Shown here: piece by piece, positions 11,053 through 42,380 of the stretch
Position numbering within the stretch: position 1 is the stretch's first letter
Layout: each line of letters begins with the position of its first letter
DNA from: Elusimicrobiota bacterium
GTDB taxonomy: Bacteria > Elusimicrobiota > Elusimicrobia > UBA1565 > UBA9628
DNA: 64,000 bases
Reading direction: 5' to 3'
Assembly: GCA_036676805.1 (NCBI GenBank)
Contig: JAKFCD010000004.1
Coordinates: 17,687 to 81,686 of the forward strand
The notes under the pieces: model-generated
Told to the model about the DNA's origin: nothing
Seen by the model: only the letters and a program-made list of their open reading frames with translations
The model's database searches: none
Position numbers and translations under genes: made by a program

Positions 11053-11071
11053 AAGAAAGCTGTCCTCGTCC

Positions 11072-12136: not shown

Positions 12137-12153
12137 ATTCTTTAAATAATCAG

Positions 12154-12429: not shown

Positions 12430-12435
12430 AAGTCG

Positions 12436-13080
12436 ATGCGCCGGTCACTCCTCGCCATCCTCCTGCTCGCGCCCGCCCTGCCGGCGGCGGCGGCCGAGCA
12501 GGCGCCGACGCTGTGGCAGGAGCGCTTCTTCTGGGACGCCCTGCTCACCGCGCGCGACCGCCTGGCGCGCCAGCAAAGCGACCCGATGATGATCCCGGTG
12601 ATGAAGGCCATCGCCGGGCAGGTCGCCCAGCAGGTGGCCAACCTCGCCCAGATTCACCAGTACGTGCGCGCGCAGGGCGACAACCTGCGCTACGCCTACG
12701 CCCAGCCCGACCCCCAGCCGAGCCTCGACACCATCATCAACAACTTCGAGACCTTGACGACGGGCTGCGACCAGGTGCGCCAGAACCTGTACTACCTGAC
12801 CGCCCGCCAGCGTCTCGCCCAGTCGCAGGCCCTGCCCGACCCGGAGATGTACCAGACCGGCCTGCTCATCCTCGGGCAGGTGCAGCAGCTGCAGCTGACC
12901 CTGAACGCCCTGTACACCGACATGACGGCCGTGCGCGGCGTCGTCGCGGACAACGACTGGGCCAACGACCGCCACTTCAGCAACAAGACCGAGGAGCTCA
13001 TGCGCAGCATCGTGCGCGTGCAGGACTCGGTGTTCGCGGTGTACAACGCCGGCTACGAGCTGGCGATGCGCTGCCGCTGA
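12436..13080 (+). CDS. Secreted hypothetical protein (Gln/Ala-rich, 214 aa)
   Basis: It has a clear signal peptide, MRRSLLAILLLAPALPAAAAEQ. The upstream in-frame extension to 12277 lacks signal-peptide character. No domain recognised. Confidence 0.5.
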   Translation: MRRSLLAILLLAPALPAAAAEQAPTLWQERFFWDALLTARDRLARQQSDPMMIPVMKAIAGQVAQQVANLAQIHQYVRAQGDNLRYAYAQPDPQPSLDTIINNFETLTTGCDQVRQNLYYLTARQRLAQSQALPDPEMYQTGLLILGQVQQLQLTLNALYTDMTAVRGVVADNDWANDRHFSNKTEELMRSIVRVQDSVFAVYNAGYELAMRCR

Positions 13081-13084
13081 CGCC

Positions 13085-20648: not shown

Positions 20649-23600
20649 ATGGACACAACCGGAGCGCTGCGCCGCTGGTTTCAAGGACCGGGCGGGCCGA
20701 TCCGGTCCGCCTCGAGCCTGCTCGCGCTTTTCCTCGTCCTCGTCGCGGTCCACGAGTGGACATCGTCGCGCCCGAGGCCCCGGCTCCTGTCGTGGAGCGC
20801 GTCCGGCCCCGGTCCGACGCCGCTGAAGGACGGGGCGCGCCCGGAGCCGGTCCGGATCGCCTTCTCCGACTCCGCCGCGAAGCTCGAGGACATCGGCCGG
20901 CCCGTCGCGCGCGGGATCGCGCTCTCGCCGCGGACGCGCGGGACCTGGTCCTGGGCGAGCGGCCGGGAGCTGGTCTTCACGCCCGACGAGGATTGGCCCG
21001 CGGGCCGGACCTACACGGTCCGCTTCGACAAGGGCTTCTTCCCGGATCACGTCAGGCTCCAGACCCTGGAGGGGCGCTTCGTCACGGCGCCGTTCTCCGC
21101 GACGCTCGCCTCCTCCGAATTCCACGTGGACCCGCGGGACCCCGCGCTGAAGCGGGTCGCCGCGACCTTCCGCTTCAGCCATCCCGTCGACGCCGACGCG
21201 TTCGAGAAGCGCCTGACCATGATCATGAGCGGGCAAAAGCAGGGCCTGTTCGACCGCGACCGCGTTCCGCATAAGTTCACCGTCGCCTACGACAAATTCC
21301 ACGGCGAGGCCTACGTCGCCTCGCGGCCGCTGCCCATCCCGATCGAGGCGGCGACGATGGAGATCGCCGCCGCCGCCGGCGTGAGCCCCGCGCGCGGAGG
21401 CCCGAAGACCTCGGCCCCGCTCTCCGCGGCGGTCCGGGTGCCGGGCATGTACGACTATTTCCGGATCGAGAGCGCCCGGGCCGAGCTCGTGCGCAACGAA
21501 CGGCTCGAGCCAGAGCAGGTGCTCATCGTTTCGGCCTCGGGCGGCGTCGGCGAGAAGGAGCTGGCCGCCGGGCTCCAAGCTTGGATCCTGCCCGCCGACC
21601 GACCCGCGGCGCCCGGCCGCCTCCTGCAGCGAAATCACCCCTGGAGCGATCCGTCCGAGGTCGGCCCCGAGACGCTCGCCCGCTCGACCGCCGCGGCCCT
21701 GGCGCCGATCGCGGCCGAGCGCGAGCACCCGTCCGCGCACAGCTTCAAGCTGCGGGCTCCTCCCGGCGCGGCGCTTTACGTCAAGGCCCGCCGCGGGCTC
21801 GTCGCGTACGGCGGCTACGTGCAGGCGAAGGATTTCGACGCCGTCGTCCGCCTGCCGGGATTCCCCCGCGAGATCAAGATCCTCCACCAGGGCGCCCTGC
21901 TGCGGTTGTCGGGAGAGAAGAAGCTTTCCTTATATTCCCTCGGCGAGGGCGCGGTCCGCCTCGAGGCCGGCCGCGTGCGGCCGAGCCAGCTCAATCACCT
22001 GGCGAGCCAGACCGAAGGCGACTTCTCCAAGCCGAGCTTCCGCGGCTGGACGTTCGGCCAGGACGACATCACGGAGCGCTTCGAGGAGGTGCGGCGCTTC
22101 GGGCGCGTCGAGCCGGACCGGCTTCATTTCTTCGCCTTCGACTTCGCGCCGCACCTGCAATCCCCGGCCTCCGGGACGCGCAACGGTCTCTTCTTCCTCC
22201 GCGCCGAGGGGTGGGACGCCGAGCACAAGCGGGCGACGGGCCCCGCCGACACGCGCTTCATCCTCATCACCGACCTCGGCGTGCTCGTCAAGGAGAACGC
22301 CGACGCGTCCCGGGACGCGTTCGTGCAGTCGCTGGCGACCGGCGAGCCGGTCCCGGGCGCCCGCGTCGAGGTCGTCGGCGTCAACGGCCTTCCGATCGCG
22401 AGCGCCGCGACCGACGCGGCGGGGCGCGCCCGGCTCCCCGACCTGTCCGGCTTCAAGCGGGAGCGCAGGCCGGCGGCGTTCGTCGTGCGCAGCGGAGAGG
22501 ATCTCTCCTTCCTCCCGTTCGACCGCCAGGACCGGAGGCTCGACGTGTCCCGCTTCGACGTCGGGGGAGATTCGACCCGGGGCCGCGAGCGGGAGCTGTC
22601 CGCCTTCCTGTTCAGCGACCGCGGGCTGTACCGTCCGGGCGAGGCGTTTCACGCGGGCATCATCGTGCGCCCCGCCGTGTGGGGGCAGGACCTCGCCGGC
22701 GTGCCGCTCGAGGTCTCCGTCCTCGACCCGCGCGGCCTCGAGGTGAAGAAGGTGAAGCTGCCCCTTTCCGCCGCGGGCTTCGAGACGATCGACTATCAGA
22801 CGCAGGAGAACGGCCTGACCGGGAGCTTCACGGTCTGCGTCTACATCGTCAAGGACGGGCGCCGCGGCGCCCTGCTCGGCTCGACGACGGTGCGCGTCGA
22901 GGAGTTCCTGCCGGACCGCCTGAGGATCACGGCTCGCTTCTCCGAAGAGAGGACCGAAGGCTGGGTCTCGCCCAAGGACCTCAAGGCCGCGATCAGCCTG
23001 CGCAACCTGTTCGGCGCGCCCGCGGAGGGCCGGCGCGTCTCCGGACGTATACGCCTCTCTCCGGCGGCCCCGGCCTTCAAGGCGTTCGCCGGCTACGCGT
23101 TCTTCGATCCGTCCGAGGCGAAGAAGAGCTTCACGGAGAGCCTCGACGACGCGAAGACGGACGCCGACGGCGCGGCGTCGTTCGACATGCTCCTCGAGCG
23201 CTTCGCCGAGGGCACCTACCGCCTCGAGCTGACGGCGGAGGGTTTCGAGGCCGAGGGCGGTCGCGGCGTCGCCGCGCAGGCGGCGGTGCTCGTGTCGCCC
23301 CGGCCCTACCTGATCGGGCTGAAGGCCGACGGGGACCTGCGCTACGTGCCGCGCGGGAGCACGCGCGCGGTGACGGCGGCGGCCGTCGGCCCGGAGGGGC
23401 GGGCCGTCGCCGCTTCGTCCATCACTTTGCAGCTCGTCGAGGAGCGCTGGGTGTCCGCGCTCGTCAAAGGAAACGACGGCCTGCACCGCTACCAGTCGGT
23501 CAGAAAGGAGCTGTTCGTCTCGTCGCGGGCCCTTAACCTGCCGGCGAGCCCGCGCACCGTCCGCCTCGACGTTTCGTCCCCGGGCGATTACGCCTTGGTC

Positions 23601-26285
23601 CTGCGCGACGCGGCCGGCTCCGAGCTCAATCGCCTGCGGTACTCCGTCGCCGGCCACGGGAACCTGTCGCGCAGCCTCGAGAGGAACGCCGAGCTGCAGC
23701 TGCGGCTGGAGAAGACCGATTACGCGCCGGGGGAGCTCGTGAAGATGCAGATCAAGGCGCCTTACTCCGGGGCCGGCCTGATCTCGATAGAGCGCGACAA
23801 GGTGCACGCTCATAAATGGTTCCAGGCCTCGGCCAGCGCCTCGACGCAGAGCATACGGCTTCCCGACGGCGTCGAGGGCAACGCCTACGTGACGGTGACC
23901 TTCCTGCGCGCGCCGGACTCCCGGGAGATCTTCATGAACCCGCTCTCCCACGGCGTCGCCGCGTTCAGCGTGAGCCGCGCGCGCCGCGAGCTCCCGGTGA
24001 CGCTCGATGCGCCGGAGACCCTCAAGCCCGGGAAAAAGGTCTCGCTGCGGGTGAAGACCCCGCGCCGGGCGCGCGTCGCGGTATTCGCCTCCGACGAGGG
24101 CATACTCCAGGCCGCGGGCTGGAGGACGCCGGATCCCCTGGCGCATTTCCTGCGCAAGCGCGCCCTGGAGGTCCGCACTTATCAGCTGCTCGACCTGCTG
24201 CTCCCCGAATACCGCCTGTCGATGTCCGTCATGGCGCCGGGCGGCGACAAGGACGGCTGGGACGCGGCCGGCAAGAACCTCAACCCGTTCAAGCGCCGCC
24301 GCGACAAGCCCGCGGTGTTCTGGTCGGGGATCGTCGAGACGGGCCCGGAAGGCAAGGAGGTCTCCTTCCTCGTGCCCGACTCCTTCAACGGGACCTTGCG
24401 CGTCACCGCCGTCGCCGTCGAGCCGTCGGCGATCGGCGTCGCGCAGAGGACAGTGCTCGTGCGCCAGGCCATCGTGCTCTCCCCCAACGCCCCCCTCTTC
24501 GTCGCCCCCGGCGACGAGTTCGAGGCGAGCGTGGCGGTCGCCAACGGCGTGAAGGGGTCGGGCCCGGGCGCCGTCGGCCGCGTGACGCTCAAGACCTCCG
24601 GACACCTCGAGGTCTTAGGCGGGAGCGTCAGGCTCGTGCCCGTCGGCGAGAACCGCGAGGCCGTCGCGGTGTTCCGCCTCCGCTCCCGCCCCGCGCTGGG
24701 CGCCGCGCTGCTGACCTTCGAGACGACCGTCTCCTCGGAGACGGCCCGGCGCGAGATATCGCTGAGCGTGCGTCCCTCGATGCCTTACCGGGTGACGCTC
24801 GACACGGGCCATCTCGAGGCCGGGCGCCGGGAATCGCCGGCCCCGCGCAAGCTCTACCCGTCCTTCCGGACGCTCGAGGTCTCGGTCTCCCCCGTTCCGC
24901 TCGTCCTCGCCAAGGGCCTCCTCCAATATCTGCGGAGCTATCCGTACGGCTGCACCGAGCAGGTCCTCAGCCAGACCTTCCCCGCCCTGATCCTTCGCCG
25001 CCGCCCGGAGTTCGGGTACGCGCCCGCGACCGTGGAGGCGAACCTCGCGCGCGCGGTCGACATCCTGCGCTCGCGACAGAACGAGGACGGCGCGTTCGGC
25101 ATGTGGGCGGCCAATTCCCACGTCTCGCCCTTCCAGGCCGTTTACGCGGCGCATTTCCTGACCGAGGCCAAAGAGCTGGGCTACGCCGCGCCTCCCGAAC
25201 TGTTGGAACGCTCGCTGGTCTACCTCAACGCGGTCGCCGCCGGCGAACCCGGCATCGACGCGCCGCCGCGCGTGCGCGCCTACGCGGTCTACGTGCTGAC
25301 CCGCAACGGGCGCGTCACCACGCCGCTGATCGACGCGCTGCGCGCGCGCTTCGACAAGGACGCAGTCGGGGCCTGGAAGAAAGATCTGACCGCGGCCTAC
25401 CTCGCGTCCTCCTATTCGATGCTCCACCTCGACGGCCCGGCCGAGGTCCTCATGAAGGGCGTGTCGACCGGCGAACCGAGAACGCCGGATTGGGAGTGGT
25501 TCTACGACGATTCGATCCACGAGGCGCAGTATCTGTACCTGCTCGCCCGGCATTTCCCGGCGAGGCTGGCGGCCCTCGACGCGGACGCCGTGCTCCGCGT
25601 CGTTGCGCCCCTGCAGCGCGGGAGCTACAACTCGCTCTCGGCCGCGTACTCCATACTCGCCCTCGACGCGTACGCGGCGGCGGCCGGGGAGCTCAAGCCC
25701 GGCGAGGCGCGCGTCGAGGAGGTCCTCGAGGCGGGCGGCCGGCGCGCGCTGGCGCTGCCTCCGGGGCTGTTCGCGAAAGCCGGGTTCACGCCGGCGGCGA
25801 AGGCGGTCTCGGTGGAGAACCTGTCCCCGCGCCGCCTGTTCTATCAGACGACCCAGTCGGGCTACGACCTCGCCGTCCCGGCGGCGCCGGTGCGCCGCAA
25901 GCTCGAGGTTCTCCGCGAGATTCTCGACGACACGGGCCGCGCCGTGACGACGGCCGAGCTCGGCCGCGACTACACGGTGCGGCTGCGCGTGCGCTCGCTC
26001 GACGGCGCCCATGTCCCGAACCTCGCGGTGGTCGATCTCGCGCCGGGCGGCTTCGAGCCCTCGTGGAGAGACCGGTCCGACGGGCCCGCGGGGGTCGATT
26101 ATCAGGACATCCGCGAGGATCGCGTGCTGTTCTTCGGCTCGGCGGGCGCGAGCGTCCTCGAGCTGACCTACCGCCTCAAGGCCTCCGGCCGCGGGACCTT
26201 CATCGTCCCGCCGCCGTTCGCCGAATCGATGTATGACCGCTCGGTCTCCGCGCTCGGCTCCTCCGGCTCCATCGAGGTCCGATGA
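20649..26285 (+). CDS. Bacterial alpha-2-macroglobulin family protein (YfhM-like) with an intact thioester
   Basis: 1878 aa with an N-terminal membrane anchor. Repeated macroglobulin/Ig-like domains are present. The thioester CxEQ motif occurs as YPYGCTEQVLSQTF. It is translationally coupled (ATGA) to pbpC. Confidence 0.9.
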   Translation: MDTTGALRRWFQGPGGPIRSASSLLALFLVLVAVHEWTSSRPRPRLLSWSASGPGPTPLKDGARPEPVRIAFSDSAAKLEDIGRPVARGIALSPRTRGTWSWASGRELVFTPDEDWPAGRTYTVRFDKGFFPDHVRLQTLEGRFVTAPFSATLASSEFHVDPRDPALKRVAATFRFSHPVDADAFEKRLTMIMSGQKQGLFDRDRVPHKFTVAYDKFHGEAYVASRPLPIPIEAATMEIAAAAGVSPARGGPKTSAPLSAAVRVPGMYDYFRIESARAELVRNERLEPEQVLIVSASGGVGEKELAAGLQAWILPADRPAAPGRLLQRNHPWSDPSEVGPETLARSTAAALAPIAAEREHPSAHSFKLRAPPGAALYVKARRGLVAYGGYVQAKDFDAVVRLPGFPREIKILHQGALLRLSGEKKLSLYSLGEGAVRLEAGRVRPSQLNHLASQTEGDFSKPSFRGWTFGQDDITERFEEVRRFGRVEPDRLHFFAFDFAPHLQSPASGTRNGLFFLRAEGWDAEHKRATGPADTRFILITDLGVLVKENADASRDAFVQSLATGEPVPGARVEVVGVNGLPIASAATDAAGRARLPDLSGFKRERRPAAFVVRSGEDLSFLPFDRQDRRLDVSRFDVGGDSTRGRERELSAFLFSDRGLYRPGEAFHAGIIVRPAVWGQDLAGVPLEVSVLDPRGLEVKKVKLPLSAAGFETIDYQTQENGLTGSFTVCVYIVKDGRRGALLGSTTVRVEEFLPDRLRITARFSEERTEGWVSPKDLKAAISLRNLFGAPAEGRRVSGRIRLSPAAPAFKAFAGYAFFDPSEAKKSFTESLDDAKTDADGAASFDMLLERFAEGTYRLELTAEGFEAEGGRGVAAQAAVLVSPRPYLIGLKADGDLRYVPRGSTRAVTAAAVGPEGRAVAASSITLQLVEERWVSALVKGNDGLHRYQSVRKELFVSSRALNLPASPRTVRLDVSSPGDYALVLRDAAGSELNRLRYSVAGHGNLSRSLERNAELQLRLEKTDYAPGELVKMQIKAPYSGAGLISIERDKVHAHKWFQASASASTQSIRLPDGVEGNAYVTVTFLRAPDSREIFMNPLSHGVAAFSVSRARRELPVTLDAPETLKPGKKVSLRVKTPRRARVAVFASDEGILQAAGWRTPDPLAHFLRKRALEVRTYQLLDLLLPEYRLSMSVMAPGGDKDGWDAAGKNLNPFKRRRDKPAVFWSGIVETGPEGKEVSFLVPDSFNGTLRVTAVAVEPSAIGVAQRTVLVRQAIVLSPNAPLFVAPGDEFEASVAVANGVKGSGPGAVGRVTLKTSGHLEVLGGSVRLVPVGENREAVAVFRLRSRPALGAALLTFETTVSSETARREISLSVRPSMPYRVTLDTGHLEAGRRESPAPRKLYPSFRTLEVSVSPVPLVLAKGLLQYLRSYPYGCTEQVLSQTFPALILRRRPEFGYAPATVEANLARAVDILRSRQNEDGAFGMWAANSHVSPFQAVYAAHFLTEAKELGYAAPPELLERSLVYLNAVAAGEPGIDAPPRVRAYAVYVLTRNGRVTTPLIDALRARFDKDAVGAWKKDLTAAYLASSYSMLHLDGPAEVLMKGVSTGEPRTPDWEWFYDDSIHEAQYLYLLARHFPARLAALDADAVLRVVAPLQRGSYNSLSAAYSILALDAYAAAAGELKPGEARVEEVLEAGGRRALALPPGLFAKAGFTPAAKAVSVENLSPRRLFYQTTQSGYDLAVPAAPVRRKLEVLREILDDTGRAVTTAELGRDYTVRLRVRSLDGAHVPNLAVVDLAPGGFEPSWRDRSDGPAGVDYQDIREDRVLFFGSAGASVLELTYRLKASGRGTFIVPPPFAESMYDRSVSALGSSGSIEVR

Positions 26286-28600
26286 AGCGCCGCTTGGCCG
26301 CCGGCGCCGCCCTCCTGGCCCTGCTCGCGGCACCCTTCCTGCCCCCGCTGCCCCGTCCCGCGCCGCTGCGCGAGGGCATTCCCTTCTCGCGCGCCGTGTA
26401 CGCGCGCGACGGCCGCCTCCTGCGGCTGACCTTGGCGGCCGACGGGCGCTACCGCCTCTGGGTGCCGCTGCGCGAGATGTCCCCCGTCCTCGTGGAGGCG
26501 ACCTTGCTGCACGAGGACCGGCGCTTCCGCCTCCACCCCGGCGTGGACCCCGCGTCGCTGCTGCGCTCGGCGTGGACGACCTACGTCGCGCGGACGCGCC
26601 GCCGGGGAGCCTCGACCATCACGATGCAGCTGGCCCGCCTCAAGTACGGACTCGACTCGAGCCGGCCCGCGGGGAAGGCGGTCCAGATACTGTGCGCGCT
26701 GCGGCTCGAGCTGCTGTACTCCAAGGACCGCATCCTCGAGGCCTACCTCAACCTGGTCCCCTACGGCGGGAACATCGAGGGGGCCGGCGCGGCGAGCTTC
26801 GCCTATTTCGGCAAGGACGTGTCCCGCCTCGAGCTGAGCGAGGCGATCACGCTCGCCGTGATTCCCCAGAATCCGGTCCGCCGCACGATGACCCGATCGG
26901 AGAGAGCGAGCCGGCGCACCCTCGAGGAGGCGCGCCGCCGCCTGTTCGCCCGCTGGCTCGCCCTCCACCCCGAAGACTCCCGCCGGAGCGCCGCCCTGGA
27001 GGCGCCGTGGGAGGCGCGCGGCCCGCGGACGCTCCCGTTCGGCGCGCCTCATTTCACGCGCCGCGTGCTCGCCCGGAGCCGCGACGAGCGCGTCGTGACG
27101 ACCTTGGACCTCGACGCGCAGCGGCTGCTCGAGCGGCTCGTGGCCGGCCATGTCGAACGGCGCCGCGACCAGGGCATCCGCAACGCGGCGGCGCTGCTCG
27201 TCGACTTCACCTCGATGGAGATCGTCGCCGCCGTCGGCTCGGCCGGCTACGGCGACGCGGGCATACTCGGGCAGGTGAGCGCGCTGACCGCGCGGCGCTC
27301 CCCGGGCTCGGCGCTGAAGCCCTTCGCCTACGCGCTCGCTTTCGAGCAGGGGCTCATCCACCCCCAGACTTTGCTCAAGGACGCGCCCACCGCCTTCGGC
27401 GTCTATGATCCGGAGAATTTCGACGGGGATTTCGCGGGCCCGCTTCCCGCGCGGGAAGCGCTGGCCAAGAGCCGGAACATCCCCGCGGTGACCTTGGCGT
27501 CGAAGCTCGCCCCGCCGGGGCTCTACGGCTTCCTGAAGTCGGCGGGCGTCGATCTGCCCCGCCCCGCCGAGCACTACGGCCTCGGACTCGTGCTCGGCAC
27601 CGGCGAGACGAGCATGGAGGACCTGGCGCGGCTCTACGCGATGCTCGGCAACGGCGGCGAGCTCAAGCCGCTGCGCCGCGCGTCCTCCGATCCGAGGGGA
27701 CCGGGCGCGCGGCTGCTTTCGCCGGACGCGGTCTTCCTCACGATGGACGCCCTCCGGTCCAATCCGCGGCCGCTCCAGTCCTTCCGCGAGGACTGGCGCG
27801 CGGGGGCGCTCCCGGTGTATTGGAAAACCGGCACCTCCTGGGCCTTCCGGGATGCCTGGGCCGCGGGAGTCTTCGGCCGCTACGCGCTCGTCGTGTGGAT
27901 CGGAGACTTCCGCGGGGAAAGCAATCCCGCATTCGTCGGCGCGGAGGCCGCCGCACCCTTGTTCTTCGACATCGCCGACGCGCTTCAGGCGCGCGGGCCG
28001 CCGCGCGACGAGTACGCGCTGGGCCAGGCCGGGCTGAAGGCCGTCTCCCTCGAGGTCTGCGCCTTGTCGGGCGCGGCCCCGGGGCCGCTCTGCCCGCGCC
28101 GCGCGAAGACCTGGTTCATCCCGGGCGTCTCGCCGATCGCGGCGTGCGAGGTGCACCGCGAGATCCTCGTCGACGAGCGCTCGGGACGCCGGGCCTGCGG
28201 CCATGCCGGCGCCCGGGCGGAGGTGTTCGAATTCTGGCCGTCCGACCTTCTGCGCATCTTCCGTCAGGCCGGCATCCCGCGGCGAACGCCCCCCGCCTAC
28301 GACCCCGCCTGCGGCCTGACCGACCGCTCCGGCCGCGGGGCGCCGCCGCGCATCACCTCGCCGTTGTCCGGAGTGACCTACCACGCGACCGCCGCCGATC
28401 CGGGGCCGATCCCGCTGTCGGCCGTGGCCGACGCCGACGCGACCGAGCTGTACTGGTTCGCCGATGGCGCTTTGCTCGGGCGAGCGCTCGCCGGCAAGCC
28501 CCTGTTCTGGACGCCCCGGCCGGGACGCAGCACCGTGCGCGTCGTGGACGACCAGGGCCGCGGGGACGCGCGGGACGTCGAGGTCGCGTTCAGCGAGTAG
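26282..28600 (+). CDS. pbpC: Penicillin-binding protein 1C (GT51 transglycosylase and transpeptidase)
   Basis: 772 aa. GT51 motifs EDRRFRLHPG, GASTITMQLAR and RILEAYLNLVPYGG are present, as are the transpeptidase motifs SALK, SRN and KTGTS. Confidence 0.9.
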   Translation: MKRRLAAGAALLALLAAPFLPPLPRPAPLREGIPFSRAVYARDGRLLRLTLAADGRYRLWVPLREMSPVLVEATLLHEDRRFRLHPGVDPASLLRSAWTTYVARTRRRGASTITMQLARLKYGLDSSRPAGKAVQILCALRLELLYSKDRILEAYLNLVPYGGNIEGAGAASFAYFGKDVSRLELSEAITLAVIPQNPVRRTMTRSERASRRTLEEARRRLFARWLALHPEDSRRSAALEAPWEARGPRTLPFGAPHFTRRVLARSRDERVVTTLDLDAQRLLERLVAGHVERRRDQGIRNAAALLVDFTSMEIVAAVGSAGYGDAGILGQVSALTARRSPGSALKPFAYALAFEQGLIHPQTLLKDAPTAFGVYDPENFDGDFAGPLPAREALAKSRNIPAVTLASKLAPPGLYGFLKSAGVDLPRPAEHYGLGLVLGTGETSMEDLARLYAMLGNGGELKPLRRASSDPRGPGARLLSPDAVFLTMDALRSNPRPLQSFREDWRAGALPVYWKTGTSWAFRDAWAAGVFGRYALVVWIGDFRGESNPAFVGAEAAAPLFFDIADALQARGPPRDEYALGQAGLKAVSLEVCALSGAAPGPLCPRRAKTWFIPGVSPIAACEVHREILVDERSGRRACGHAGARAEVFEFWPSDLLRIFRQAGIPRRTPPAYDPACGLTDRSGRGAPPRITSPLSGVTYHATAADPGPIPLSAVADADATELYWFADGALLGRALAGKPLFWTPRPGRSTVRVVDDQGRGDARDVEVAFSE

Positions 28601-36714: not shown

Positions 36715-37583
36715 AGAAAAGCAAGACTTACGCGAAGGTCGGAGTCATCGGAGGCAGCGGACTCTACTCCTCCGACGCGATCGAGAACCCCCGCGAGCTG
36801 CGCCTGAAGACGCCGTTCGGGGCGCACTCCGGGCCCATCACCTTGGGCGACCTCGAGGGCGTCCCGTGCGCCTTCCTCCCGCGCCACGGCAAGGGCCATG
36901 TCGTCACCCCGACCGAGATCAACCAGCGCGCCAACATGTGGGCGCTTAAATCCCTCGGCGTGGAGCGCGTGCTGGCCTTCAGCGCGGTCGGCTCCCTGAA
37001 GGAGGAGTTGGCTCCGCGGACCTTCGTGTTCCCCGACCAGCTGGTGGACCGGACCAAGGACCGCGTGCAGACGTTCTTCGGCAACGGCCTGGTCGCCCAC
37101 ATCGCCCTGAACCCTCCCTTCGCCCCGGAGCAGAACCGCATCGTCTACGACTGCGCCAAGGAGCTCGGCATCAAGTCCGTTTTAGGCGGCACCTACTGCT
37201 GCATGGAGGGCCCGGCGTTCTCGACCAAGGCCGAGAGCGAGATGCATCGCTCCTTCGGCTGGTCCTTGATCGGCATGACCGCAGCCACCGAGGCCAAGCT
37301 CGCCCGCGAGGCCGAGCTCGTCTACTCGCAGGCCGCGATGGTCACGGACTACGACTGCTGGAAGGAGGGCGAGGAGGTCCACACCGAGATGGTCGTGGCC
37401 AACCTGCACGCGAACTCGGCCAACGCGCAGAAGCTGATGCGCCTGGCCGTGCCCCGCATCGCCGCGGCTCCCCTCGAGCCGGCCTTCTCCGAAGCCCTCA
37501 AGGGCGCGCTGTTCACCGCCCCCGAGGCGCGCAGCAAGGCGGCGCTCAAGAAGCTCGAACTGCTCGTGAGGAAATACCTCTAA
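36711..37583 (+). CDS. mtnP: S-methyl-5'-thioadenosine phosphorylase
   Basis: 290 aa of PNP family 2 (...VIGGSGLY...GMTAATEAKLAREAEL...). Confidence 0.85.
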   Translation: MKKSKTYAKVGVIGGSGLYSSDAIENPRELRLKTPFGAHSGPITLGDLEGVPCAFLPRHGKGHVVTPTEINQRANMWALKSLGVERVLAFSAVGSLKEELAPRTFVFPDQLVDRTKDRVQTFFGNGLVAHIALNPPFAPEQNRIVYDCAKELGIKSVLGGTYCCMEGPAFSTKAESEMHRSFGWSLIGMTAATEAKLAREAELVYSQAAMVTDYDCWKEGEEVHTEMVVANLHANSANAQKLMRLAVPRIAAAPLEPAFSEALKGALFTAPEARSKAALKKLELLVRKYL

Positions 37584-38065
37584 TGGCCAAGAACTCCAAG
37601 CGCTCCGTCGAACGGCTCATCGAGACCGCCGTGCAGGCGCAGAAGCGGGCCTACTGCCCCTATTCGCGCTACCCCGTCGGCGCCGCCGTGCTCACCGCGG
37701 GCGGCCGGGTGTTTCCCGGCTGCAACGTGGAGAACGCGAGCTACGGCCTGGCGATGTGCGCCGAGCGCGCCGCGATCTACCACGCGGTCGCCAGCGGCCA
37801 CGACTCGATCCGGGCCGTCGCCGTCGTCGGCGCCGCGGCCAAGCCCTGCGGAGCGTGCCGGCAGGTCATGCACGAGTTCAGCGACAAGGACACCGACATC
37901 TATCTCGTCGACCTGAATCCGGCCACCGGGCGCCGCAGCGTCCTCAAGACGACGGTCTACAAGCTCCTGCCCCTGGCCTTCGATCCGCTCGCCTCCGGCC
38001 TGCTGCCCAAGAACCCGCGGAACCTGCTGCGACGCAAGACCGGGAAACCCAAGAAGAGGAAATGA
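37583..38065 (+). CDS. cdd: Cytidine deaminase
   Basis: 160 aa. The zinc ligands CAERAA and PCGACRQ are present. Confidence 0.85.
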   Translation: MAKNSKRSVERLIETAVQAQKRAYCPYSRYPVGAAVLTAGGRVFPGCNVENASYGLAMCAERAAIYHAVASGHDSIRAVAVVGAAAKPCGACRQVMHEFSDKDTDIYLVDLNPATGRRSVLKTTVYKLLPLAFDPLASGLLPKNPRNLLRRKTGKPKKRK

Positions 38066-38463
38066 CCATGGACGCTTCTCCTATAAAAAAAATAGCCGAT
38101 TGGATGAAGTCCGCCGATCTCGCCGAGGTCGCCTACCGCAAGGGCGGCACGGGCTTCTCCCTGACCGCCCTCGGAGCGGGCGACCACCCCACGCTCTCCG
38201 CCCCGCCGATGCCCGCCGGGCGCTTCGCGTCCGTCGCGAGCGACGGCGTCGGCGTTTTCCAGTGGAGCGAGCCCGGCAAGGCTCGCAGGACCGAGGAAGG
38301 CGTCGAGCTCGCCGCCGGCGACGTCGTCGGGCTGATCGTGACCGGGTCGGGAGCGTCCAGGCCCGTCGTCTCGCCCCACGCCGGCCGCGTCGCGAAAATC
38401 TTCATCGAGGCGGGGCAGGCCGTGGAGTACGGCCAGCCGATCCTCCTGCTCGAGACCCGCTGA
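38062..38463 (+). CDS. Biotin carboxyl carrier protein (AccB) homolog that lacks the biotinylated lysine (BADC-like)
   Basis: 134 aa. The N-terminus is AccB-like (PIKKIADWMKSADLAEVAY) and a C-terminal biotinyl/lipoyl hammerhead is present. The EAMKM position reads GLIVTGSGASRP, so no Lys is available for biotinylation. Confidence 0.6.
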   Translation: MTMDASPIKKIADWMKSADLAEVAYRKGGTGFSLTALGAGDHPTLSAPPMPAGRFASVASDGVGVFQWSEPGKARRTEEGVELAAGDVVGLIVTGSGASRPVVSPHAGRVAKIFIEAGQAVEYGQPILLLETR

Positions 38464-39836
38464 TGTCAAACGCCGCGATCTTGTGCACGCAGTGCGGGGC
38501 CGCCTCGGCGACCCCGCTCTCGCAGTGCGCGAAATGCGGCGGCAAGAACTCCCGCGTGTGCGGGGGCTGCGGCTTCCAGAACTCGCTCGCCAAGAATTAC
38601 TGCGACAAGTGCGGAAACCCGATCTCGGAGATCGGGCCCGTCGTGGCGCCTCCGCCCCCGACGGCCGTGCCGGACGCGCCCAAGAACGACATCCCGGCGA
38701 CGGTGGTCAAGCATCTCACCAAGGAGCCGGCGGCCAAAAAGGAAGCGCCGCCTCCCGCTGCCCTGCCGCCGGCTAAGATGAAGGCGCTCGAGCCCGGCAA
38801 GCCCAGCGCGTCGCCGCCGGGCGCCCCCCTGCCCGTCGCGGGCCGCCAGGCCGTCGATCCTTTCGCCGCCTCCTCCGTCTCCAACGACCCTTGGGCCCCC
38901 GTCGCCCCGCCGCAGGCCGAGTTCATCCCCAAGCCCTCCCCCTGGGTCGGGACGGCGCGGCGCGCCGTCACCGTCGCGTTCGCCACCTTCGCCGTCGTCG
39001 CGGCGCTCATCGCCGTCTGGCATTGGACGGAGAACAACAAGCCGGAGAACGCCTCCCGCCGCGCCGCCATCCGCTACCTCGAGGACCTGCGCGCGCGCGA
39101 CTACGCCTCGGCGTACGCCCGGTTCTCCGAGATCGCGCGAAAATACTGCACGCTCGAGGAATTCACCGCCTCCCGCGACACCTCGACCTGGACCTGGTCC
39201 GACCTGCGCATCGATCACATCGAGCCGGGCGCCGTGCTCTTCGCCTATCGCCTCAACGTCGAGGGGCAGCCCTCGCGCGTCGACCGCGTCCTTTTCGTCG
39301 AAGAGAACAAGAACTGGGTCCGTCCCTACAGCTGGGTGCTGATGCGCAAGGTCGAGGATGCCTTCGAGAAAAACAACGCGGACATGGGCCTCGTGCTCGC
39401 TCAGGCCGCCGCGACGGTCAATCCCCGCGACCCGATGGCCCGGGGCTACCTCTGCGAGGCCGCCTATTACCGCAAGTCTCCCGTCGACACCGAGCGGCAG
39501 TGCCTGACCGCGATCGAGCTCTCCCACGTCTACCCCTCGAATCTTTCGCTGAAAAGCCTCTACCATCTGCACGCGATCCTGGCAGACACCTATAAGAACG
39601 CGCTGAATAAGCCGGACCTCGCCCTTGACCAGTTCGCGCAGATGCTGGCCTTCCCGAGCATCTCGCCCGCCGACCAGTGCGAGATCCTGCTCGCGCGCTC
39701 CGAGGCGTACCTGACCCTCAGCCGGCCGGGAGAGGCTCTCGCCGACGCGAACCGCGCCGGCCAACTGTGCGTCCGCCCGCAGGACCTCGCCTACATCGAG
39801 GAGATCCGCCGCAAGCTCAACGCGCCCAACCAATGA
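38463..39836 (+). CDS. Membrane protein with an N-terminal double zinc ribbon, a Pro-rich linker, one TM helix and a C-terminal alpha-helical (TPR-like) domain
   Basis: 457 aa from MSNAAILCTQCGAASATPLSQCAKCGG...CGGCGFQ...CDKCG (four CxxC pairs). The TM helix reads AVTVAFATFAVVAALIAVW. TGATG overlap with the upstream stop. Confidence 0.6.
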   Translation: MSNAAILCTQCGAASATPLSQCAKCGGKNSRVCGGCGFQNSLAKNYCDKCGNPISEIGPVVAPPPPTAVPDAPKNDIPATVVKHLTKEPAAKKEAPPPAALPPAKMKALEPGKPSASPPGAPLPVAGRQAVDPFAASSVSNDPWAPVAPPQAEFIPKPSPWVGTARRAVTVAFATFAVVAALIAVWHWTENNKPENASRRAAIRYLEDLRARDYASAYARFSEIARKYCTLEEFTASRDTSTWTWSDLRIDHIEPGAVLFAYRLNVEGQPSRVDRVLFVEENKNWVRPYSWVLMRKVEDAFEKNNADMGLVLAQAAATVNPRDPMARGYLCEAAYYRKSPVDTERQCLTAIELSHVYPSNLSLKSLYHLHAILADTYKNALNKPDLALDQFAQMLAFPSISPADQCEILLARSEAYLTLSRPGEALADANRAGQLCVRPQDLAYIEEIRRKLNAPNQ

Positions 39837-39850
39837 GGATGACGAGTGAT

Positions 39851-39930
39851 GGTGTCAGGCTTGTCGTTGTTGCAGTATTCCTATCGGTCAATTCCCATTG
39901 GAATACTGCAACAACGACAAGCCTGACACC
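39851..39930. repeat. Perfect 31-bp inverted repeat with an 18-nt loop, flanked by direct repeats of about 12-15 bp (MITE- or REP-like palindromic insertion)
   Basis: The arms are ggtgtcaggcttgtcgttgttgcagtattcc and ggaatactgcaacaacgacaagcctgacacc. The flanking direct repeats caatgaggatga lie at 39831-39842 and 39941-39952. The element is about 48% GC in a 70% GC genome. Confidence 0.6.
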
Positions 39931-39956
39931 GGTTATCGCCCAATGAGGATGATGCC

Positions 39957-41318
39957 ATGTTCAAGAAGATCCTGATCGCCAACCGCTCCGAGATCGCCGT
40001 GCGAGTGATCCGCGCCGCGCGCGAGCTCGGAGTCAAGACCGTCGCCGTCTACTCCGACGCCGACCGCGAGTCGCGCCACATCGGCATGGCCGACGAGGCG
40101 GTCTGCATCGGCCCCGGCCCCTCCAAGCTCTCCTACCTCGACCAGGAGGCGGTGCTCTCGGCGGCGAAGAACACCGGCGCCGACGCCATTCATCCCGGGT
40201 ATGGATTCCTCTCCGAAAACGCCGATTTCTCCGAGCTGTGCGCCGAGCGCGGCATCACCTTCATCGGCCCGCCCCCCGCCGCGAGCCGCAAGCTCGGCTT
40301 CAAGAGCGCGGGCAAGGCCGTCGCGGCGCTCGCCCAGGTCCCCGTCGTGCCGGGGACCGAGGGCGACATCACGACCGACGTCTCCAAGGAGGTGGCCGCG
40401 ATCGGCTATCCCGTCCTCATCAAGGCCTCCGCCGGCGGCGGCGGCAAGGGCATGAGGATCGTCCGGACCCCGGAGGAGCTCAAGCCCCAGCTCGAGGCGG
40501 CCGCCACCGAGGCCAAGGCCGCCTTCGGCGACGGCTCGGTGTTCATCGAGAAGCTCTTGGAGCGGCCCCGTCACGTCGAGATTCAGATCATCGCGGACGG
40601 GTTCGGCAACGTGGTCGCTTTCCCGGAGCGCGACTGCACGGTCCAGCGCCGCCACCAGAAGCTCGTCGAGGAATCCCCGTCTCCGGCGATATCGCCGGAG
40701 ATTCGCCGTAATATGCAGGCGGCCGCCATCCGCCTCGCCAAGGCGGCGGGCTATCAGAACGTGGGCACCGTCGAATTCCTTTTCCAGGACGGGAAGTTCT
40801 ATTTCATCGAAGTGAACGCGCGACTGCAGGTCGAGCATCCCGTGACCGAGGCCGTCGCGGGCGTCGACCTCATGGAGTTAATGATAAAAGTCGCCGCGGG
40901 CGAGAAGCTGCCGTTCGGCCAGGAACGCGCCAGCGAGATCCGCTGCCACGCCATCGAGCATCGCATCAACGCCGAGGACCCCGACAACAACTTCATGCCC
41001 TGCCCGGGCAAGATCGAGAGCATCGAGCTGCCCGGCGGGGCGGGCGTGCGCGTGGACACCCACGTCTACGCCGGCTATACCATCCCCAGCTACTACGACA
41101 GCATGATCGCGAAGCTCATCATCTCGGCGGGCGACCGGCCCGCCGCCCTGCGGCGCTCCCTGAGAGCGCTCGGCGAGCTCAAGATCGCCGGCGTCAAGAC
41201 GACCGCCGGGATGCACGCGAAGGTCGTCTCCCATCCCGTGTTCATGAGCGGGGACTTCGACACCCACTTCATCGAGAAGACCGGCCTGCTCGACAAAAAG
41301 GAGCCCGCCCATGCCTGA
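39957..41318 (+). CDS. accC: Acetyl-CoA carboxylase biotin carboxylase subunit
   Basis: 453 aa. The ATP-grasp motif GGGGKGMRIV and the biotin carboxylase N- and C-terminal domains are present. Confidence 0.95.
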   Translation: MFKKILIANRSEIAVRVIRAARELGVKTVAVYSDADRESRHIGMADEAVCIGPGPSKLSYLDQEAVLSAAKNTGADAIHPGYGFLSENADFSELCAERGITFIGPPPAASRKLGFKSAGKAVAALAQVPVVPGTEGDITTDVSKEVAAIGYPVLIKASAGGGGKGMRIVRTPEELKPQLEAAATEAKAAFGDGSVFIEKLLERPRHVEIQIIADGFGNVVAFPERDCTVQRRHQKLVEESPSPAISPEIRRNMQAAAIRLAKAAGYQNVGTVEFLFQDGKFYFIEVNARLQVEHPVTEAVAGVDLMELMIKVAAGEKLPFGQERASEIRCHAIEHRINAEDPDNNFMPCPGKIESIELPGGAGVRVDTHVYAGYTIPSYYDSMIAKLIISAGDRPAALRRSLRALGELKIAGVKTTAGMHAKVVSHPVFMSGDFDTHFIEKTGLLDKKEPAHA

Positions 41319-41907
41319 TTTCAAGAATACCATCACGGCGCAGCTCAAGGACTCGGCCAAGGTGCTGACGGCGGTCGCCAGGCTGTCCCCCGTCATCGAC
41401 GCGGCCGCCCGGGATCTCCTGCTCGCTTACCGCAACGGCGGTAAGCTTCTGAGTTTCGGCAACGGCGGCTCCTCGTGCGACGCGATCAACTTCGCCGACG
41501 AGCTCACCGGCCGCTACCGCCGCAACCGCCCCGGCCTGCCCGCGATCGCCCTCTCGGCCAACCAGAGCGACCTGACCTCGATCGCCAACGACTTCGGCTT
41601 CGAGCACGTCTTCGAGCGCCCGCTGCGCGCGCTCGGCCGGCCCGGGGACGTCGCCGTCGCCATCTCGACCTCAGGAAACTCCAAGAACGTGCTGAAGGCC
41701 GCCGCCGCCGCCCGCGAGCTCGGCCTGACCGTCATCGGGCTGACCGGCCGGTCCGGAGGAAAGCTCAAGGCCCTGTGCGACCATTGCGTGCGCGTGCCGT
41801 CGGACTCCACGGCGCGCATTCAAGAAGCCCACATCGCGGTCATCCAGATCTGGTGCGGCATACTCGAGGACGAGCTTTTCCCGAACGCGCCTCTCGCCCA
41901 CGGCTGA
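41311..41907 (+). CDS. gmhA: D-sedoheptulose 7-phosphate isomerase (SIS domain)
   Basis: 198 aa. The SIS motif GNGGSSCDAINFA is present. Its start overlaps accC. Confidence 0.85.
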   Translation: MPDFKNTITAQLKDSAKVLTAVARLSPVIDAAARDLLLAYRNGGKLLSFGNGGSSCDAINFADELTGRYRRNRPGLPAIALSANQSDLTSIANDFGFEHVFERPLRALGRPGDVAVAISTSGNSKNVLKAAAAARELGLTVIGLTGRSGGKLKALCDHCVRVPSDSTARIQEAHIAVIQIWCGILEDELFPNAPLAHG

Positions 41908-42380
41908 TGATCTCCACGACCAAGATCCTGCCGCTCAAGAAGCTCGCGACCATGCGCGAGCTGTGGCGCTGGGAAGGCCGCGCCGTCGTCTTCACCAACG
42001 GCGTCTTCGATATCCTGCACGCCGGCCACGTGAAGGTGCTCGAGAAGGCCAAGGCGCAGGGCGACCTGCTCGTCGTCGGCGTCAACTCCGACCGCTCCGC
42101 GCGCGCTCTCGACAAGGCCCCCGGCAGGCCTATAAACGCGTGGCGCGACCGCGCCCTCGTGATCGCCGCGCTCGGCTGCGTCGACGCCGTGGTCAAGTTC
42201 GACGAGCCCACCCCGGAGAAGCTGATGGCCCGCCTCAAGCCCGACGTCCAGGTCAAGGGCGGCGACTACAAGCCCTCCGACCTGCCCGAGGCCAGGCACG
42301 CCGGCAAGGTCGTCATCGTGCCGCTCAGGAAGGGCTATTCGACGACGGGCCTCATCAAGCGCCTTCAGGGAAGACGCTAG
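41907..42380 (+). CDS. D-glycero-beta-D-manno-heptose 1-phosphate adenylyltransferase (RfaE/HldE domain II, cytidylyltransferase-like)
   Basis: 157 aa from MISTTKILPL. The HxGH motif reads FTNGVFDILHAGH. TGATG overlap with gmhA. Confidence 0.8.
   Translation: MISTTKILPLKKLATMRELWRWEGRAVVFTNGVFDILHAGHVKVLEKAKAQGDLLVVGVNSDRSARALDKAPGRPINAWRDRALVIAALGCVDAVVKFDEPTPEKLMARLKPDVQVKGGDYKPSDLPEARHAGKVVIVPLRKGYSTTGLIKRLQGRR

What the first reader, a model, noticed from the sequence alone, without database searches (positions are those of the whole stretch)
38062..38463. AccB (BCCP) homolog that has lost its biotinylation lysine (BADC-like), sitting in the accB position upstream of accC
The protein aligns along its full length with BCCP: an AccB-type N-terminus, a Pro/Ala linker and a C-terminal biotinyl hammerhead. 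The invariant (E)AMKM lysine is replaced by GLIVTGSGASRP, however. Biotin attachment-domain proteins without the Lys are known in plants (BADC) as negative regulators of ACCase, and bacterial counterparts are rarely described. The gene is separated from accC by an inserted zinc-ribbon membrane gene and the palindromic element, which suggests a rearranged accBC locus.
Basis: partly seen in the sequence, partly recalled or inferred. Interest (0 to 1): 0.55.

Follow-up and report, generated by a model that had tools for sequence, protein, structure and literature searches.

The report
AccB relative that cannot carry biotin
A small gene next to the biotin carboxylase gene accC in an Elusimicrobia genome encodes a well-conserved copy of the biotin carrier protein AccB that has lost the lysine to which biotin is attached, so it probably acts as a non-catalytic partner of the carboxylase rather than as a carrier.

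Summary
Window 38062-38463 (+), more likely starting at the ATG at 38068, encodes a 131-133 aa protein with AccB architecture. It has an N-terminal helix plus beta-hairpin, a short Pro/Ala linker and a thumb-bearing biotinyl fold whose best structural match is E. coli BCCP. The hairpin tip reads TGSGA where canonical relatives read EAMK(M), so the biotinyl lysine is gone. Two independent assemblies give the identical sequence, so this is not a sequencing error.

The gene is not a one-off. At least 94 homologue clusters in high-GC Elusimicrobiota share the motif. A wider short-AccB family of about 50 clusters at 50% identity, including Elusimicrobiaceae, has a freely varying tip residue. Endomicrobiia and other Elusimicrobiota keep a canonical efp-accB(IEAMKIMKDV)-accC-hldE operon. 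The lysine-less gene therefore looks like the descendant of accB, not an extra copy.

The window's AccC keeps its catalytic and biotin-site residues. The zinc-ribbon membrane gene is an old, clade-conserved insertion. The palindrome is a 97-bp insertion that is present in some assemblies and absent in another.

I could not determine whether the same genome also has a lysine-bearing BCCP or accA/accD, so the BADC-like reading is only partly supported. The best reading is a non-catalytic scaffold or regulator of AccC.

The parts
38062..38463 (+). CDS of the lysine-less AccB-like protein. It is 133 aa from the ATG at 38062, or more likely 131 aa from the ATG at 38068.
   Evidence: Translation. 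Pfam Biotin_lipoyl above cut-off. 94 homologue clusters. Identical in L001 and L002.
38062..38169 (+). N-terminal AccB-type domain, residues 1-36 (helix 6-17 and beta-hairpin 20-25/32-36). W14, D19, L20 and E22 are invariant.
   Evidence: AF2 secondary structure. hhalign aligns it to the N-terminal domain of canonical AccB. Conservation.
38170..38220 (+). Short Pro/Ala-rich linker, residues 37-53. It is much shorter than the E. coli linker, and the whole protein is about 15 residues shorter than canonical Elusimicrobiota AccB.
   Evidence: Low pLDDT over residues 40-46. Alignment gaps against E. coli AccB and the canonical group.
38221..38460 (+). Biotinyl-type (barrel-sandwich hybrid) domain, residues 54-133. 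It includes a thumb-like insertion FQWSEPGKARRTEEG (about 38257-38301).
   Evidence: Foldseek hits 1BDO/4HR7 with TM 0.87-0.92 and rmsd 1.1-1.2 A. F66, W68, P71, G72 and R75 are invariant or nearly so.
38341..38355 (+). Hairpin tip T94-G95-S96-G97-A98, occupying the position of canonical E-A-M-K(-M). The biotinyl lysine is replaced by Ser/Gly.
   Evidence: Alignments. AF2 loop between strands 88-93 and 99-103. In the clade, position 96 is S78/A11/P2/C2/Q1/K1 and position 97 is G92 of 95.
38359..38361 (+). Codon for R100. This position is K in 82 of 95 clade members. It is homologous to the non-biotinylated +3 Lys/Arg of the canonical Elusimicrobiota motif EAMKIMKDV.
37583..38065 (+). Cytidine deaminase gene. 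Its stop overlaps the target's first ATG. cdd is the conserved upstream neighbour in the high-GC clade.
   Evidence: Pfam dCMP_cyt_deam_1. Synteny in L003, L006, L007, L009 and L017.
38463..39836 (+). Gene for a double zinc-ribbon, Pro-rich linker, single TM helix and helical-repeat protein (457 aa). Its start overlaps the target's stop (TGATG). It is conserved at this position only within the window's clade.
   Evidence: Weak Pfam DZR match. Alignment with L003 (62%) and L008 (36%), and presence in L017. Low-confidence AF2 model with a TM helix at 160-191 and repeats at 289-452.
39830..39952 (.). 97-bp palindromic insertion (39843-39939) with perfect 31-bp arms (39851-39881 and 39900-39930). 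It is bracketed by 13-bp direct repeats CCAATGAGGATGA (39830-39842 and 39940-39952).
   Evidence: Empty site in L001. Same element at the same site in L019. Absent in L003 and L017.
39957..41318 (+). accC, biotin carboxylase (453 aa), with catalytic and biotin-site residues intact.
   Evidence: NCBIfam PRK08591 640.7 bits and TIGR00514 625.8 bits.
41311..42380 (+). gmhA-like SIS gene (41311-41907) followed by an hldE domain II-like nucleotidyltransferase gene (41907-42380). The accC-CTP_transf adjacency is shared with canonical accBC loci of other Elusimicrobiota.
   Evidence: Pfam SIS_2. FTNGVFDILHAGHV motif in the ORF translation. PF01467 neighbours in L003, L011, L012 and L018.

Best explanation
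The gene encodes a pseudo-carrier. It descends from the accB gene of the ancestral Elusimicrobiota accB-accC operon. It keeps the parts of AccB that bind and organise biotin carboxylase: the N-terminal helix/beta-hairpin domain and the thumb-bearing biotinyl fold. It has lost the hairpin-tip lysine (EAMK to TGSG) and much of the swinging-arm linker. It therefore cannot be biotinylated or shuttle carboxybiotin.

Most likely it works as a non-catalytic subunit of the AccC encoded 1.5 kb downstream, either holding AccC in its active oligomer or occupying and regulating its BCCP-binding site. The biotin that the still-intact AccC must carboxylate would then be carried by another protein encoded outside this window.

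Shown: homology, fold, loss of the lysine, conservation, synteny and an intact AccC. Inferred: binding to AccC, the scaffold or regulator role, and the existence of another carrier.
For: - Full-length homology to AccB, including the N-terminal domain (hhalign 99.75%, E 2.7e-27).
- BCCP fold with thumb.
- Lysine absent in the window protein and throughout its clade of at least 94 clusters. The alternative K100 is replaced by R/Q/V/A/T/H/N/E in 13 of 95 sequences and is homologous to the non-modified +3 K of EAMKIMKDV.
- Strong purifying selection elsewhere: 17 invariant and 27 nearly invariant columns across 52 sequences down to 41% identity.
- In the wider short-AccB family of about 50 clusters at 50% identity, the tip residue is K, R, S, A, G, Q, P or V with a scattered phylogenetic distribution.
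- TIGR00531 scores fall stepwise: 108 and 103 for canonical Elusimicrobiota-type AccB, 59-42 for short family members, and 24.9 for the window protein.
- The gene sits in the accB position with conserved accC-CTP_transf synteny.
- AccC retains the K238, E276, E288, N290, R292, Q294, V295, E296 and R338 equivalents and the YGF biotin pocket.
- Published precedents exist for non-carrier roles of BCCP parts. The N-terminal beta-hairpin of the Chloroflexus BCCP domain drives BC tetramerisation and activity (PMC11077971). Plant BADC proteins lack the lysine and act as glue or regulators of BC-BCCP (PMC11926652; bioRxiv 10.1101/2024.11.04.621944).
Against: - No interaction data exist, and no complex model could be run.
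- In two relatives (L007, L009) the gene is not next to accC, whereas the cdd adjacency is kept.
- I could not show that any lysine-bearing biotinyl protein or accA/accD exists in the same genome.
- Published phylogenomics found an ACC-type BC but no ACC carboxyltransferase in Elusimicrobium minutum (PMC3199775 Table 1). This leaves open what the AccC module does.
- About a quarter of the wider family retain a tip lysine and could still be biotinylated.
Confidence: 0.5

Rival explanations
1. Strict BADC analogue. The protein is an extra lysine-less paralogue that coexists with a normal AccB in the same genome. It competes with AccB for AccC and so down-regulates acetyl-CoA carboxylase.
For: - It lacks the lysine but keeps the BC-interaction parts.
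- A high-GC canonical type, P0134/P0267 (VIEVMKILKDV), sits in efp-accB-accC. It is the closest lysine-bearing relative of the family profile and comes from groundwater metagenomes, as do the family's relatives.
- BADC provides a precedent.
Against: - There is no second biotinyl domain in the window.
- The P0134 organism is labelled only '[bacterium]'.
- The P0134-type gene has its own adjacent accC, so coexistence would require two accC genes.
- Among genomes identifiable by name or locus tag, canonical carriers (RIFOXYB2_FULL_48_7, RIFOXYA2_FULL_39_19, JW803, QME32) and short-family carriers (RIFOXYD12_FULL_66_9, RIFCSPLOWO2_12_FULL_59_9, HY552, HYV14, HY403, HY923, HOF38, LBG16, J6S61) do not overlap.
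- The shared accC-CTP_transf synteny favours orthology.
Confidence: 0.2
2. Repurposed module. Class Elusimicrobia has lost the multi-subunit ACC, including accA/accD. The AccC plus lysine-less AccB pair survives because it does something new that needs no protein-bound biotin on AccB. Possibilities are servicing a BCCP domain fused to another enzyme, or carboxylating free biotin.
For: - E. minutum is scored as ACC BC present, CT-alpha and CT-beta absent, and UCA-type BC present (PMC3199775).
- Short-family members occur in Elusimicrobiaceae with accC adjacent.
- The tip lysine is unconstrained across the whole family.
- The linker is shortened.
- AccC is intact but carries unusual ANRSEIA and LGFK substitutions.
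Against: - The literature evidence covers one genome analysed in 2011, and I did not confirm which AccB type E. minutum carries.
- These bacteria are diderms with LPS genes and presumably need malonyl-CoA.
- No genome from the window's own clade was surveyed for carboxyltransferase genes.
Confidence: 0.2
3. The protein is still a carrier. Biotin would be attached at another residue, such as position 100, or bound non-covalently.
For: Position 100 is Lys in 86% of clade members. A basic residue is common near the tip across the family.
Against: - The window protein has Arg at position 100, and other members have Q, V, A, T, H, N or E.
- Position 100 lies in the strand after the loop in the model.
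- It aligns with the +3 K/R that canonical Elusimicrobiota AccB carries in addition to the biotinyl lysine.
- From my own knowledge of Reche and Perham's work, biotin ligase requires the lysine at the exact turn position.
Confidence: 0.04
4. Artefact or decaying pseudogene. The loss of the lysine would be a sequencing or frame error, or the gene would be drifting without function.
For: There is none beyond the low scores against curated BCCP models.
Against: - The sequence is identical in three assemblies.
- The reading frame is intact and translationally coupled on both sides.
- At least 94 clusters share the motif, and many columns are invariant.
- The C-domain model is confident.
Confidence: 0.03

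Closest known systems
Bacterial AccB / BCCP of acetyl-CoA carboxylase (E. coli AccB, PDB 1BDO and 4HR7; NCBIfam TIGR00531)
   Same: - Same three-part architecture: N-terminal domain, Pro/Ala linker and C-terminal thumb-bearing biotinyl domain.
- Best structural match, at 26% identity.
- Encoded upstream of accC on the same strand.
   Different: - There is no lysine at the hairpin tip (TGSGA in place of EAMKM).
- The linker is roughly half as long.
- TIGR00531 scores 24.9 bits against a cut-off of 115.2.
- A membrane-protein gene lies between it and accC.
Canonical AccB of other Elusimicrobiota and Endomicrobiia (P0282 group, motif IEAMKIMKDV, in efp-accB-accC-CTP_transf)
   Same: - Closest lysine-bearing relatives.
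- Shared +3 Lys/Arg, VEYGQP C-terminus and TDL.E N-terminal motif.
- Same downstream synteny (accC followed by an hldE-like gene).
   Different: - The canonical group keeps the biotinyl lysine in about 98 of 102 sequences, is 140-155 aa long and follows efp.
- The window family is 120-133 aa long, follows cdd and has lost the lysine.
Plant BADC proteins (biotin attachment domain-containing; non-catalytic subunits of plastid heteromeric ACCase)
   Same: They are BCCP homologues without the biotinyl lysine that still associate with biotin carboxylase/BCCP. They are the only described lysine-less BCCP relatives with a defined role.
   Different: - BADCs coexist with BCCP1/2 as extra paralogues and are described as unique to plant htACCase (PMC11926652).
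- Here the gene appears to replace accB at its own locus.
- Coexistence with a true BCCP is unproven.
- The origin is almost certainly independent, because the family groups with the Elusimicrobiota AccB group.
Fused BCCP domain of Chloroflexus aurantiacus BC1
   Same: It shows that the N-terminal beta-hairpin of a BCCP module can have a purely structural role, driving BC tetramerisation and raising BC activity (PMC11077971).
   Different: That domain is fused to BC and retains a biotinylated EXMKM lysine.

Membership tests
AccB / BCCP (TIGR00531 equivalog) | Biotinyl (barrel-sandwich hybrid) domain of the ACC type with a thumb | tested here: met
   AF2 C-domain pLDDT is above 90. Foldseek top hits are 1BDO and 4HR7, with TM 0.87-0.92 and rmsd 1.1-1.2 A over 77 of 80 residues.
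AccB / BCCP (TIGR00531 equivalog) | N-terminal BC-interaction domain and Pro/Ala linker | tested here: met
   hhalign aligns residues 2-36 to the canonical N-terminal domain. The linker is present but short.
AccB / BCCP (TIGR00531 equivalog) | Biotinylated lysine in the (E)AMKM hairpin tip | tested here: not met
   The canonical K aligns to S96/G97. There is no Lys between K73 and K112. The same holds across the clade.
AccB / BCCP (TIGR00531 equivalog) | Score at or above the curated family cut-off | tested here: not met
   The window protein scores 24.9 bits against a cut-off of 115.2. For comparison, canonical P0282 scores 108 and P0134 scores 103.5.
AccB / BCCP (TIGR00531 equivalog) | Genomic linkage to accC | tested here: met
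   accC lies 1.5 kb downstream on the same strand. Linkage is conserved in L003, L011, L017 and L018, but not in L007 or L009.
BADC-type non-catalytic BCCP paralogue | BCCP homologue lacking the biotinyl lysine | tested here: met
BADC-type non-catalytic BCCP paralogue | Coexists with a biotinylatable BCCP in the same genome | not testable with these tools
   There is none in the 64-kb window. The one genome-contig scan found no P0134-type canonical gene in the representative genomes; its single hit was a lysine-less family member.
BADC-type non-catalytic BCCP paralogue | Binds BC/BCCP and modulates ACC activity | not testable with these tools
   This needs co-purification, activity assays or a multimer model.
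BADC-type non-catalytic BCCP paralogue | Common descent with the plant/algal BADC clade | not tested
   No BADC sequence was included in any comparison. The family's nearest relatives are Elusimicrobiota AccB, which suggests an independent origin.
Lipoyl domain / GcvH | Closer in sequence and structure to lipoyl carriers than to BCCP | tested here: not met
   The only lipoyl-domain hit in the top 50, 1y8n_B, ranks 39th in Foldseek and the top ranks are BCCPs. PDB sequence hits are led by BCCP-type chains.
Membrane-fusion protein (HlyD/RND adaptor) hybrid domain | Biotin_lipoyl_2-type domain embedded in a coiled-coil/beta-barrel adaptor | tested here: not met
   Biotin_lipoyl_2 scores 19.5 bits against a cut-off of 29.8. 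The protein is only 133 aa and has no adaptor domains. BesA matches cover only the hybrid domain.

The most novel reading that the evidence does not exclude
A whole bacterial class (Elusimicrobia, both gut and groundwater lineages) keeps a catalytically intact ACC-type biotin carboxylase paired with an AccB descendant that cannot be biotinylated. At least one cultured relative is reported to lack the ACC carboxyltransferase. On this reading, the AccC/pseudo-AccB pair is a new kind of carboxylase module. It would either use a carrier domain on an unrelated enzyme or free biotin, or perform a function other than malonyl-CoA synthesis. These diderm bacteria would then make malonyl-CoA by an unrecognised route.
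Probability: 0.17. Interest if true: 0.8.

Novelty: new variant of a known kind. Interest (0 to 1): 0.55.

Why it matters
Non-catalytic, lysine-less BCCP relatives are so far described only in plants (BADC), and a 2025 paper calls them unique to the plant enzyme (PMC11926652).

A conserved bacterial counterpart that occupies the accB locus itself would matter in two ways. It would show that BCCP has a separable, biotin-independent role in organising or controlling biotin carboxylase. It would also provide a simple bacterial system for studying that role, since Elusimicrobium minutum is cultivable.

The finding also reopens a basic question: how do these bacteria carboxylate acetyl-CoA? Automated annotation already calls some of these proteins 'acetyl-CoA carboxylase biotin carboxyl carrier protein', which is probably misleading for metabolic reconstructions.

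Tried and rejected
1. Sequencing or frame error. Rejected: the sequence is identical in L001 and L002, and the motif is shared by at least 94 clusters.
2. Lipoyl/GcvH or HlyD-type domain. Rejected by Foldseek, PDB and HMM rankings.
3. K100 as a shifted biotinylation site. Rejected: the window protein has Arg there, and the position is homologous to the +3 K of EAMKIMKDV.
4. A second accB in the window. None was found by phmmer on the six-frame translation or by an MK-motif search. Pfam searches of 30 further ORFs found no accA, accD, efp or birA.
5. Coexistence of a canonical BCCP in the same genomes. This could not be resolved.
   - The genome-contig scan with the high-GC canonical type (A4) returned only one locus, itself a lysine-less family member, L017.
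   - Proteins on the P0134 contigs are labelled only '[bacterium]'.
   - Look-up of a window-edge gene to extend the contig failed.
   - The supplements to the Meheust et al. Elusimicrobia paper hold no ACC KO data.
   - The E. minutum genome paper is not held.
6. Literature search for bacterial lysine-less AccB. Nothing relevant was found in the held library.
7. The membrane protein as an obligatory partner. It is clade-specific and absent from L007, L009, L011 and L018, so it is not a general component.
8. Rfam search of the palindrome. It gave only sub-threshold generic hairpin (miRNA) matches.
9. dN/dS. Not computed: the available DNA homologues are either identical or too divergent, with synonymous sites saturated.
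Full report
**Observation**

The ORF at window 38062-38463 (+) translates without stops to 133 aa. Its first ATG overlaps the stop of a cytidine deaminase gene at 37583-38065. Its stop overlaps the ATG of the next gene (TGATG at 38461-38465). A second ATG at 38068 sits at the usual distance from a GAGGA at 38056-38060. All homologues begin at the corresponding MDAS, and gene callers report 131 aa, so 38068 is the more likely start.

The protein passes the Pfam Biotin_lipoyl cut-off (26.9 bits against 22.1). It scores only 24.9 bits against the curated AccB model TIGR00531, whose cut-off is 115.2.

**Is it really BCCP-like, and is the lysine really gone?**

I built a family alignment of 52 sequences (A2) and compared it with an alignment of canonical Elusimicrobiota-type AccB (A5). 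The match had 99.75% probability, E 2.7e-27, over 130 columns. It covered the N-terminal domain, the linker and the biotinyl domain.

AlphaFold2 on A2 gave a confident C-terminal domain with pLDDT above 90. The N-terminus is modelled as a helix (6-17) followed by a beta-hairpin (20-25 and 32-36). Foldseek against the PDB ranked the E. coli BCCP biotinyl domain first: 1BDO and 4HR7, with TM 0.87-0.92 and rmsd 1.1-1.2 A over 77 columns. The only lipoyl-domain hit in the top 50 ranked 39th.

In the model the hairpin loop is T94-G95-S96-G97-A98. In both MAFFT and hhalign alignments the canonical biotinyl lysine falls on S96/G97. The only lysines in the protein are K9, K10, K16, K27, K73 and K112. 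The gene is 100% identical in two independent Logan assemblies. A sequencing or frame error is therefore excluded.

**A conserved family, not an accident**

A word-indexed search found 94 clusters of 119-159 aa (nearly all 125-133 aa), at 42-100% identity. Wherever a source named the organism, it was Elusimicrobiota.

Across the window protein and these 94, the tip positions are as follows:
- Position 96 is S78/A11/P2/C2/Q1/K1.
- Position 97 is G92 of 95.
- Position 100 is Lys in 82, but Arg in the window protein and three others, and Q, V, A, T, H, N or E elsewhere.

Position 100 aligns with the second lysine of the canonical Elusimicrobiota motif IEAMK-IMK-DV. It is therefore the homologue of a non-modified residue and not a relocated attachment site.

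Elsewhere the protein is strongly constrained, with 17 invariant and 27 nearly invariant columns. These include W14, D19, L20 and E22 in the N-terminal domain, the thumb region FQWSEPGKAR, and the VEYGQP C-terminus.

An exhaustive profile search of 1.84 billion representatives found about 50 clusters at 50% identity of 114-141 aa proteins matching over their full length, ahead of the ordinary BCCPs. In this wider short-AccB family the tip residue is K, R, S, A, G, Q, P or V. A rough NJ tree shows the lysine-bearing members scattered among the others. Named members include Elusimicrobiaceae and Elusimicrobiales MAGs.

TIGR00531 scores fall stepwise. Canonical relatives score 108 and 103. A K-to-S variant scores 92. 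Short family members score 59-42. The window protein scores 24.9.

**Genomic context and origin**

The window's arrangement is SHMT, response regulator, MTAP-like phosphorylase, cdd, AccB', zinc-ribbon membrane protein, accC, gmhA, hldE-like. It recurs in L003 (63% identity) and in L017, a GTDB Elusimicrobia MAG. L006 and L008 show parts of it.

In lower-GC family members, L011 and the Elusimicrobiaceae locus L018, the short AccB lies directly upstream of accC, followed by a CTP_transf gene. In Elusimicrobia bacterium RIFOXYB2_FULL_48_7 the same accC-CTP_transf pair is preceded by efp and a canonical 147-aa accB with EAMKIMKDV. About 98 of 102 relatives of that canonical protein keep the lysine.

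The shared downstream synteny makes the lysine-less gene the probable direct descendant of accB rather than an added paralogue. In L007 and L009 the gene still follows cdd but accC is not adjacent.

The zinc-ribbon protein at 38463-39836 has a CxxC...CxxC N-terminus, a Pro-rich linker, one TM helix and a helical-repeat C-terminus. It is homologous to the gene at the same position in L003 (62%), L008 (36%) and L017. It is therefore an old, clade-specific insertion.

The palindrome is a separate matter. A 97-bp segment at 39843-39939 has perfect 31-bp arms. Its RNA fold is -70 kcal/mol with z = -10. It is bracketed by 13-bp direct repeats that duplicate the stop/RBS sequence CCAATGAGGATGA.

Contig L001 is 100% identical to the window over 4.5 kb. 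It reads straight from the first repeat into accC, which gives an empty site. The element occupies the same site in L019, which is from the contig of an 86%-identity relative. It is absent from L003 and L017. It matches no Rfam family.

**AccC**

It keeps the equivalents of K238, E276, E288, N290, R292, Q294, V295, E296 and R338, and the HPGYGFLSEN biotin pocket. It does carry unusual ANRSEIA and LGFK substitutions. It should therefore still carboxylate biotin, which implies a biotin carrier somewhere.

**What could not be settled**

The 64-kb window contains no other biotinyl domain, accA, accD, efp or birA. I could not search the rest of the genome.

The closest lysine-bearing relative of the family profile is a high-GC type, P0134/P0267, in efp-accB-accC. 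Its organism is labelled only '[bacterium]'.

Genomes identifiable by name or locus tag show no overlap between canonical carriers and short-family carriers. This is weak evidence because few names are informative.

Lombard and Moreira (PMC3199775, Table 1) scored the one Elusimicrobia genome then available as having an ACC-type BC, no ACC CT-alpha or CT-beta, and a urea-carboxylase-type BC. I could not verify which AccB type that genome carries.

**Interpretation**

The protein cannot be a biotin carrier, yet it is under strong selection. It retains exactly the AccB parts known to contact or organise biotin carboxylase.

There are two published precedents. The N-terminal hairpin of the Chloroflexus BCCP domain drives BC tetramerisation and activity (PMC11077971). 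Plant BADCs are lysine-less BCCP homologues that act as glue or regulators and are described as unique to plants (PMC11926652; bioRxiv 10.1101/2024.11.04.621944).

I therefore favour a non-catalytic AccC partner (confidence 0.5). The rivals are:
- A strict BADC-like competitor that coexists with a true AccB (0.2).
- A repurposed AccC module in a lineage that has lost classical ACC (0.2).
- Residual carrier function at another residue or by non-covalent binding (0.04).
- An artefact or decaying pseudogene (0.03).

The finding is a new variant of a known kind. It is moderately interesting now, and would be considerably more so if whole-genome surveys show that no conventional carrier or carboxyltransferase is present.

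Noticed in passing
window 39830-39952; L001 4470-4547; L019 150-380: A 97-bp perfect-armed palindrome lies between the membrane gene and accC, flanked by 13-bp direct repeats that duplicate the stop/RBS sequence. It is absent (clean empty site) from a contig that is otherwise 100% identical. It is present at the same site in an 86%-identity relative and absent from more distant relatives. It is either a MITE-like insertion or a hairpin lost by slippage between the repeats. It matches no Rfam family.
   Followed up: yes
window 38463-39836; L003 10380-11540; L008 714-1925; L017 10373-12292: A double zinc-ribbon, Pro-rich linker, single TM helix and helical-repeat protein is translationally coupled to the lysine-less AccB (TGATG). 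It is conserved at this position only in the window's clade. Its function is unknown. Whether it tethers the AccB'/AccC pair to the membrane was not tested.
   Followed up: partly
proteins P0389, P0454, P0463, P0216, P0222, P0234 (EAMR); P0190, P0207 (AMS); P0149, P0161, P0164, P0169, P0147, P0196, P0205 (ETLN/ETLD/ESMS/ESMH/ESMR): Full-length, canonical-size AccB-like proteins from other lineages, mostly unnamed, also have the biotinyl lysine replaced. About 20 of the ordinary-size AccB-like proteins among the top 150 profile hits are affected. Lysine-less AccB relatives may therefore be widespread in prokaryotes.
   Followed up: no
window 39957-41318 (AccC residues about 9-15 and 110-116): The AccC proteins paired with the lysine-less AccB (window and L003) read ANRSEIA and LGFK. 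Canonical biotin carboxylases read ANRGEIA and MGDK. The other catalytic residues are intact.
   Followed up: partly
window 38056-38070: There are two in-frame ATGs, at 38062 and 38068. RBS spacing, the homologue N-termini and gene callers all favour 38068, which gives 131 aa rather than the 133 aa implied by the finding's start coordinate.
   Followed up: yes
window 37583-38463; L007 319-1195; L009 7395-8215: The cdd-AccB' adjacency, often with overlapping stop and start codons, is kept even in relatives where accC is not adjacent. The stable operon partner in the high-GC clade is thus the nucleoside-salvage cluster (SHMT, MTAP-like, cdd). The reason is unknown.
   Followed up: partly
window 20649-28600: A bacterial alpha-2-macroglobulin gene (1878 aa) is immediately followed by a PBP1C-type transglycosylase/transpeptidase gene. 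From my own recall, not checked here, this is the known A2M-PbpC pairing.
   Followed up: no
window about 8570-13890: Few ORFs in this stretch pass the high-GC3 coding filter that fits the rest of the window. Only a DoxX gene and one 267-aa ORF with no Pfam match pass. The region may be foreign or poorly coding. I did not examine it.
   Followed up: no
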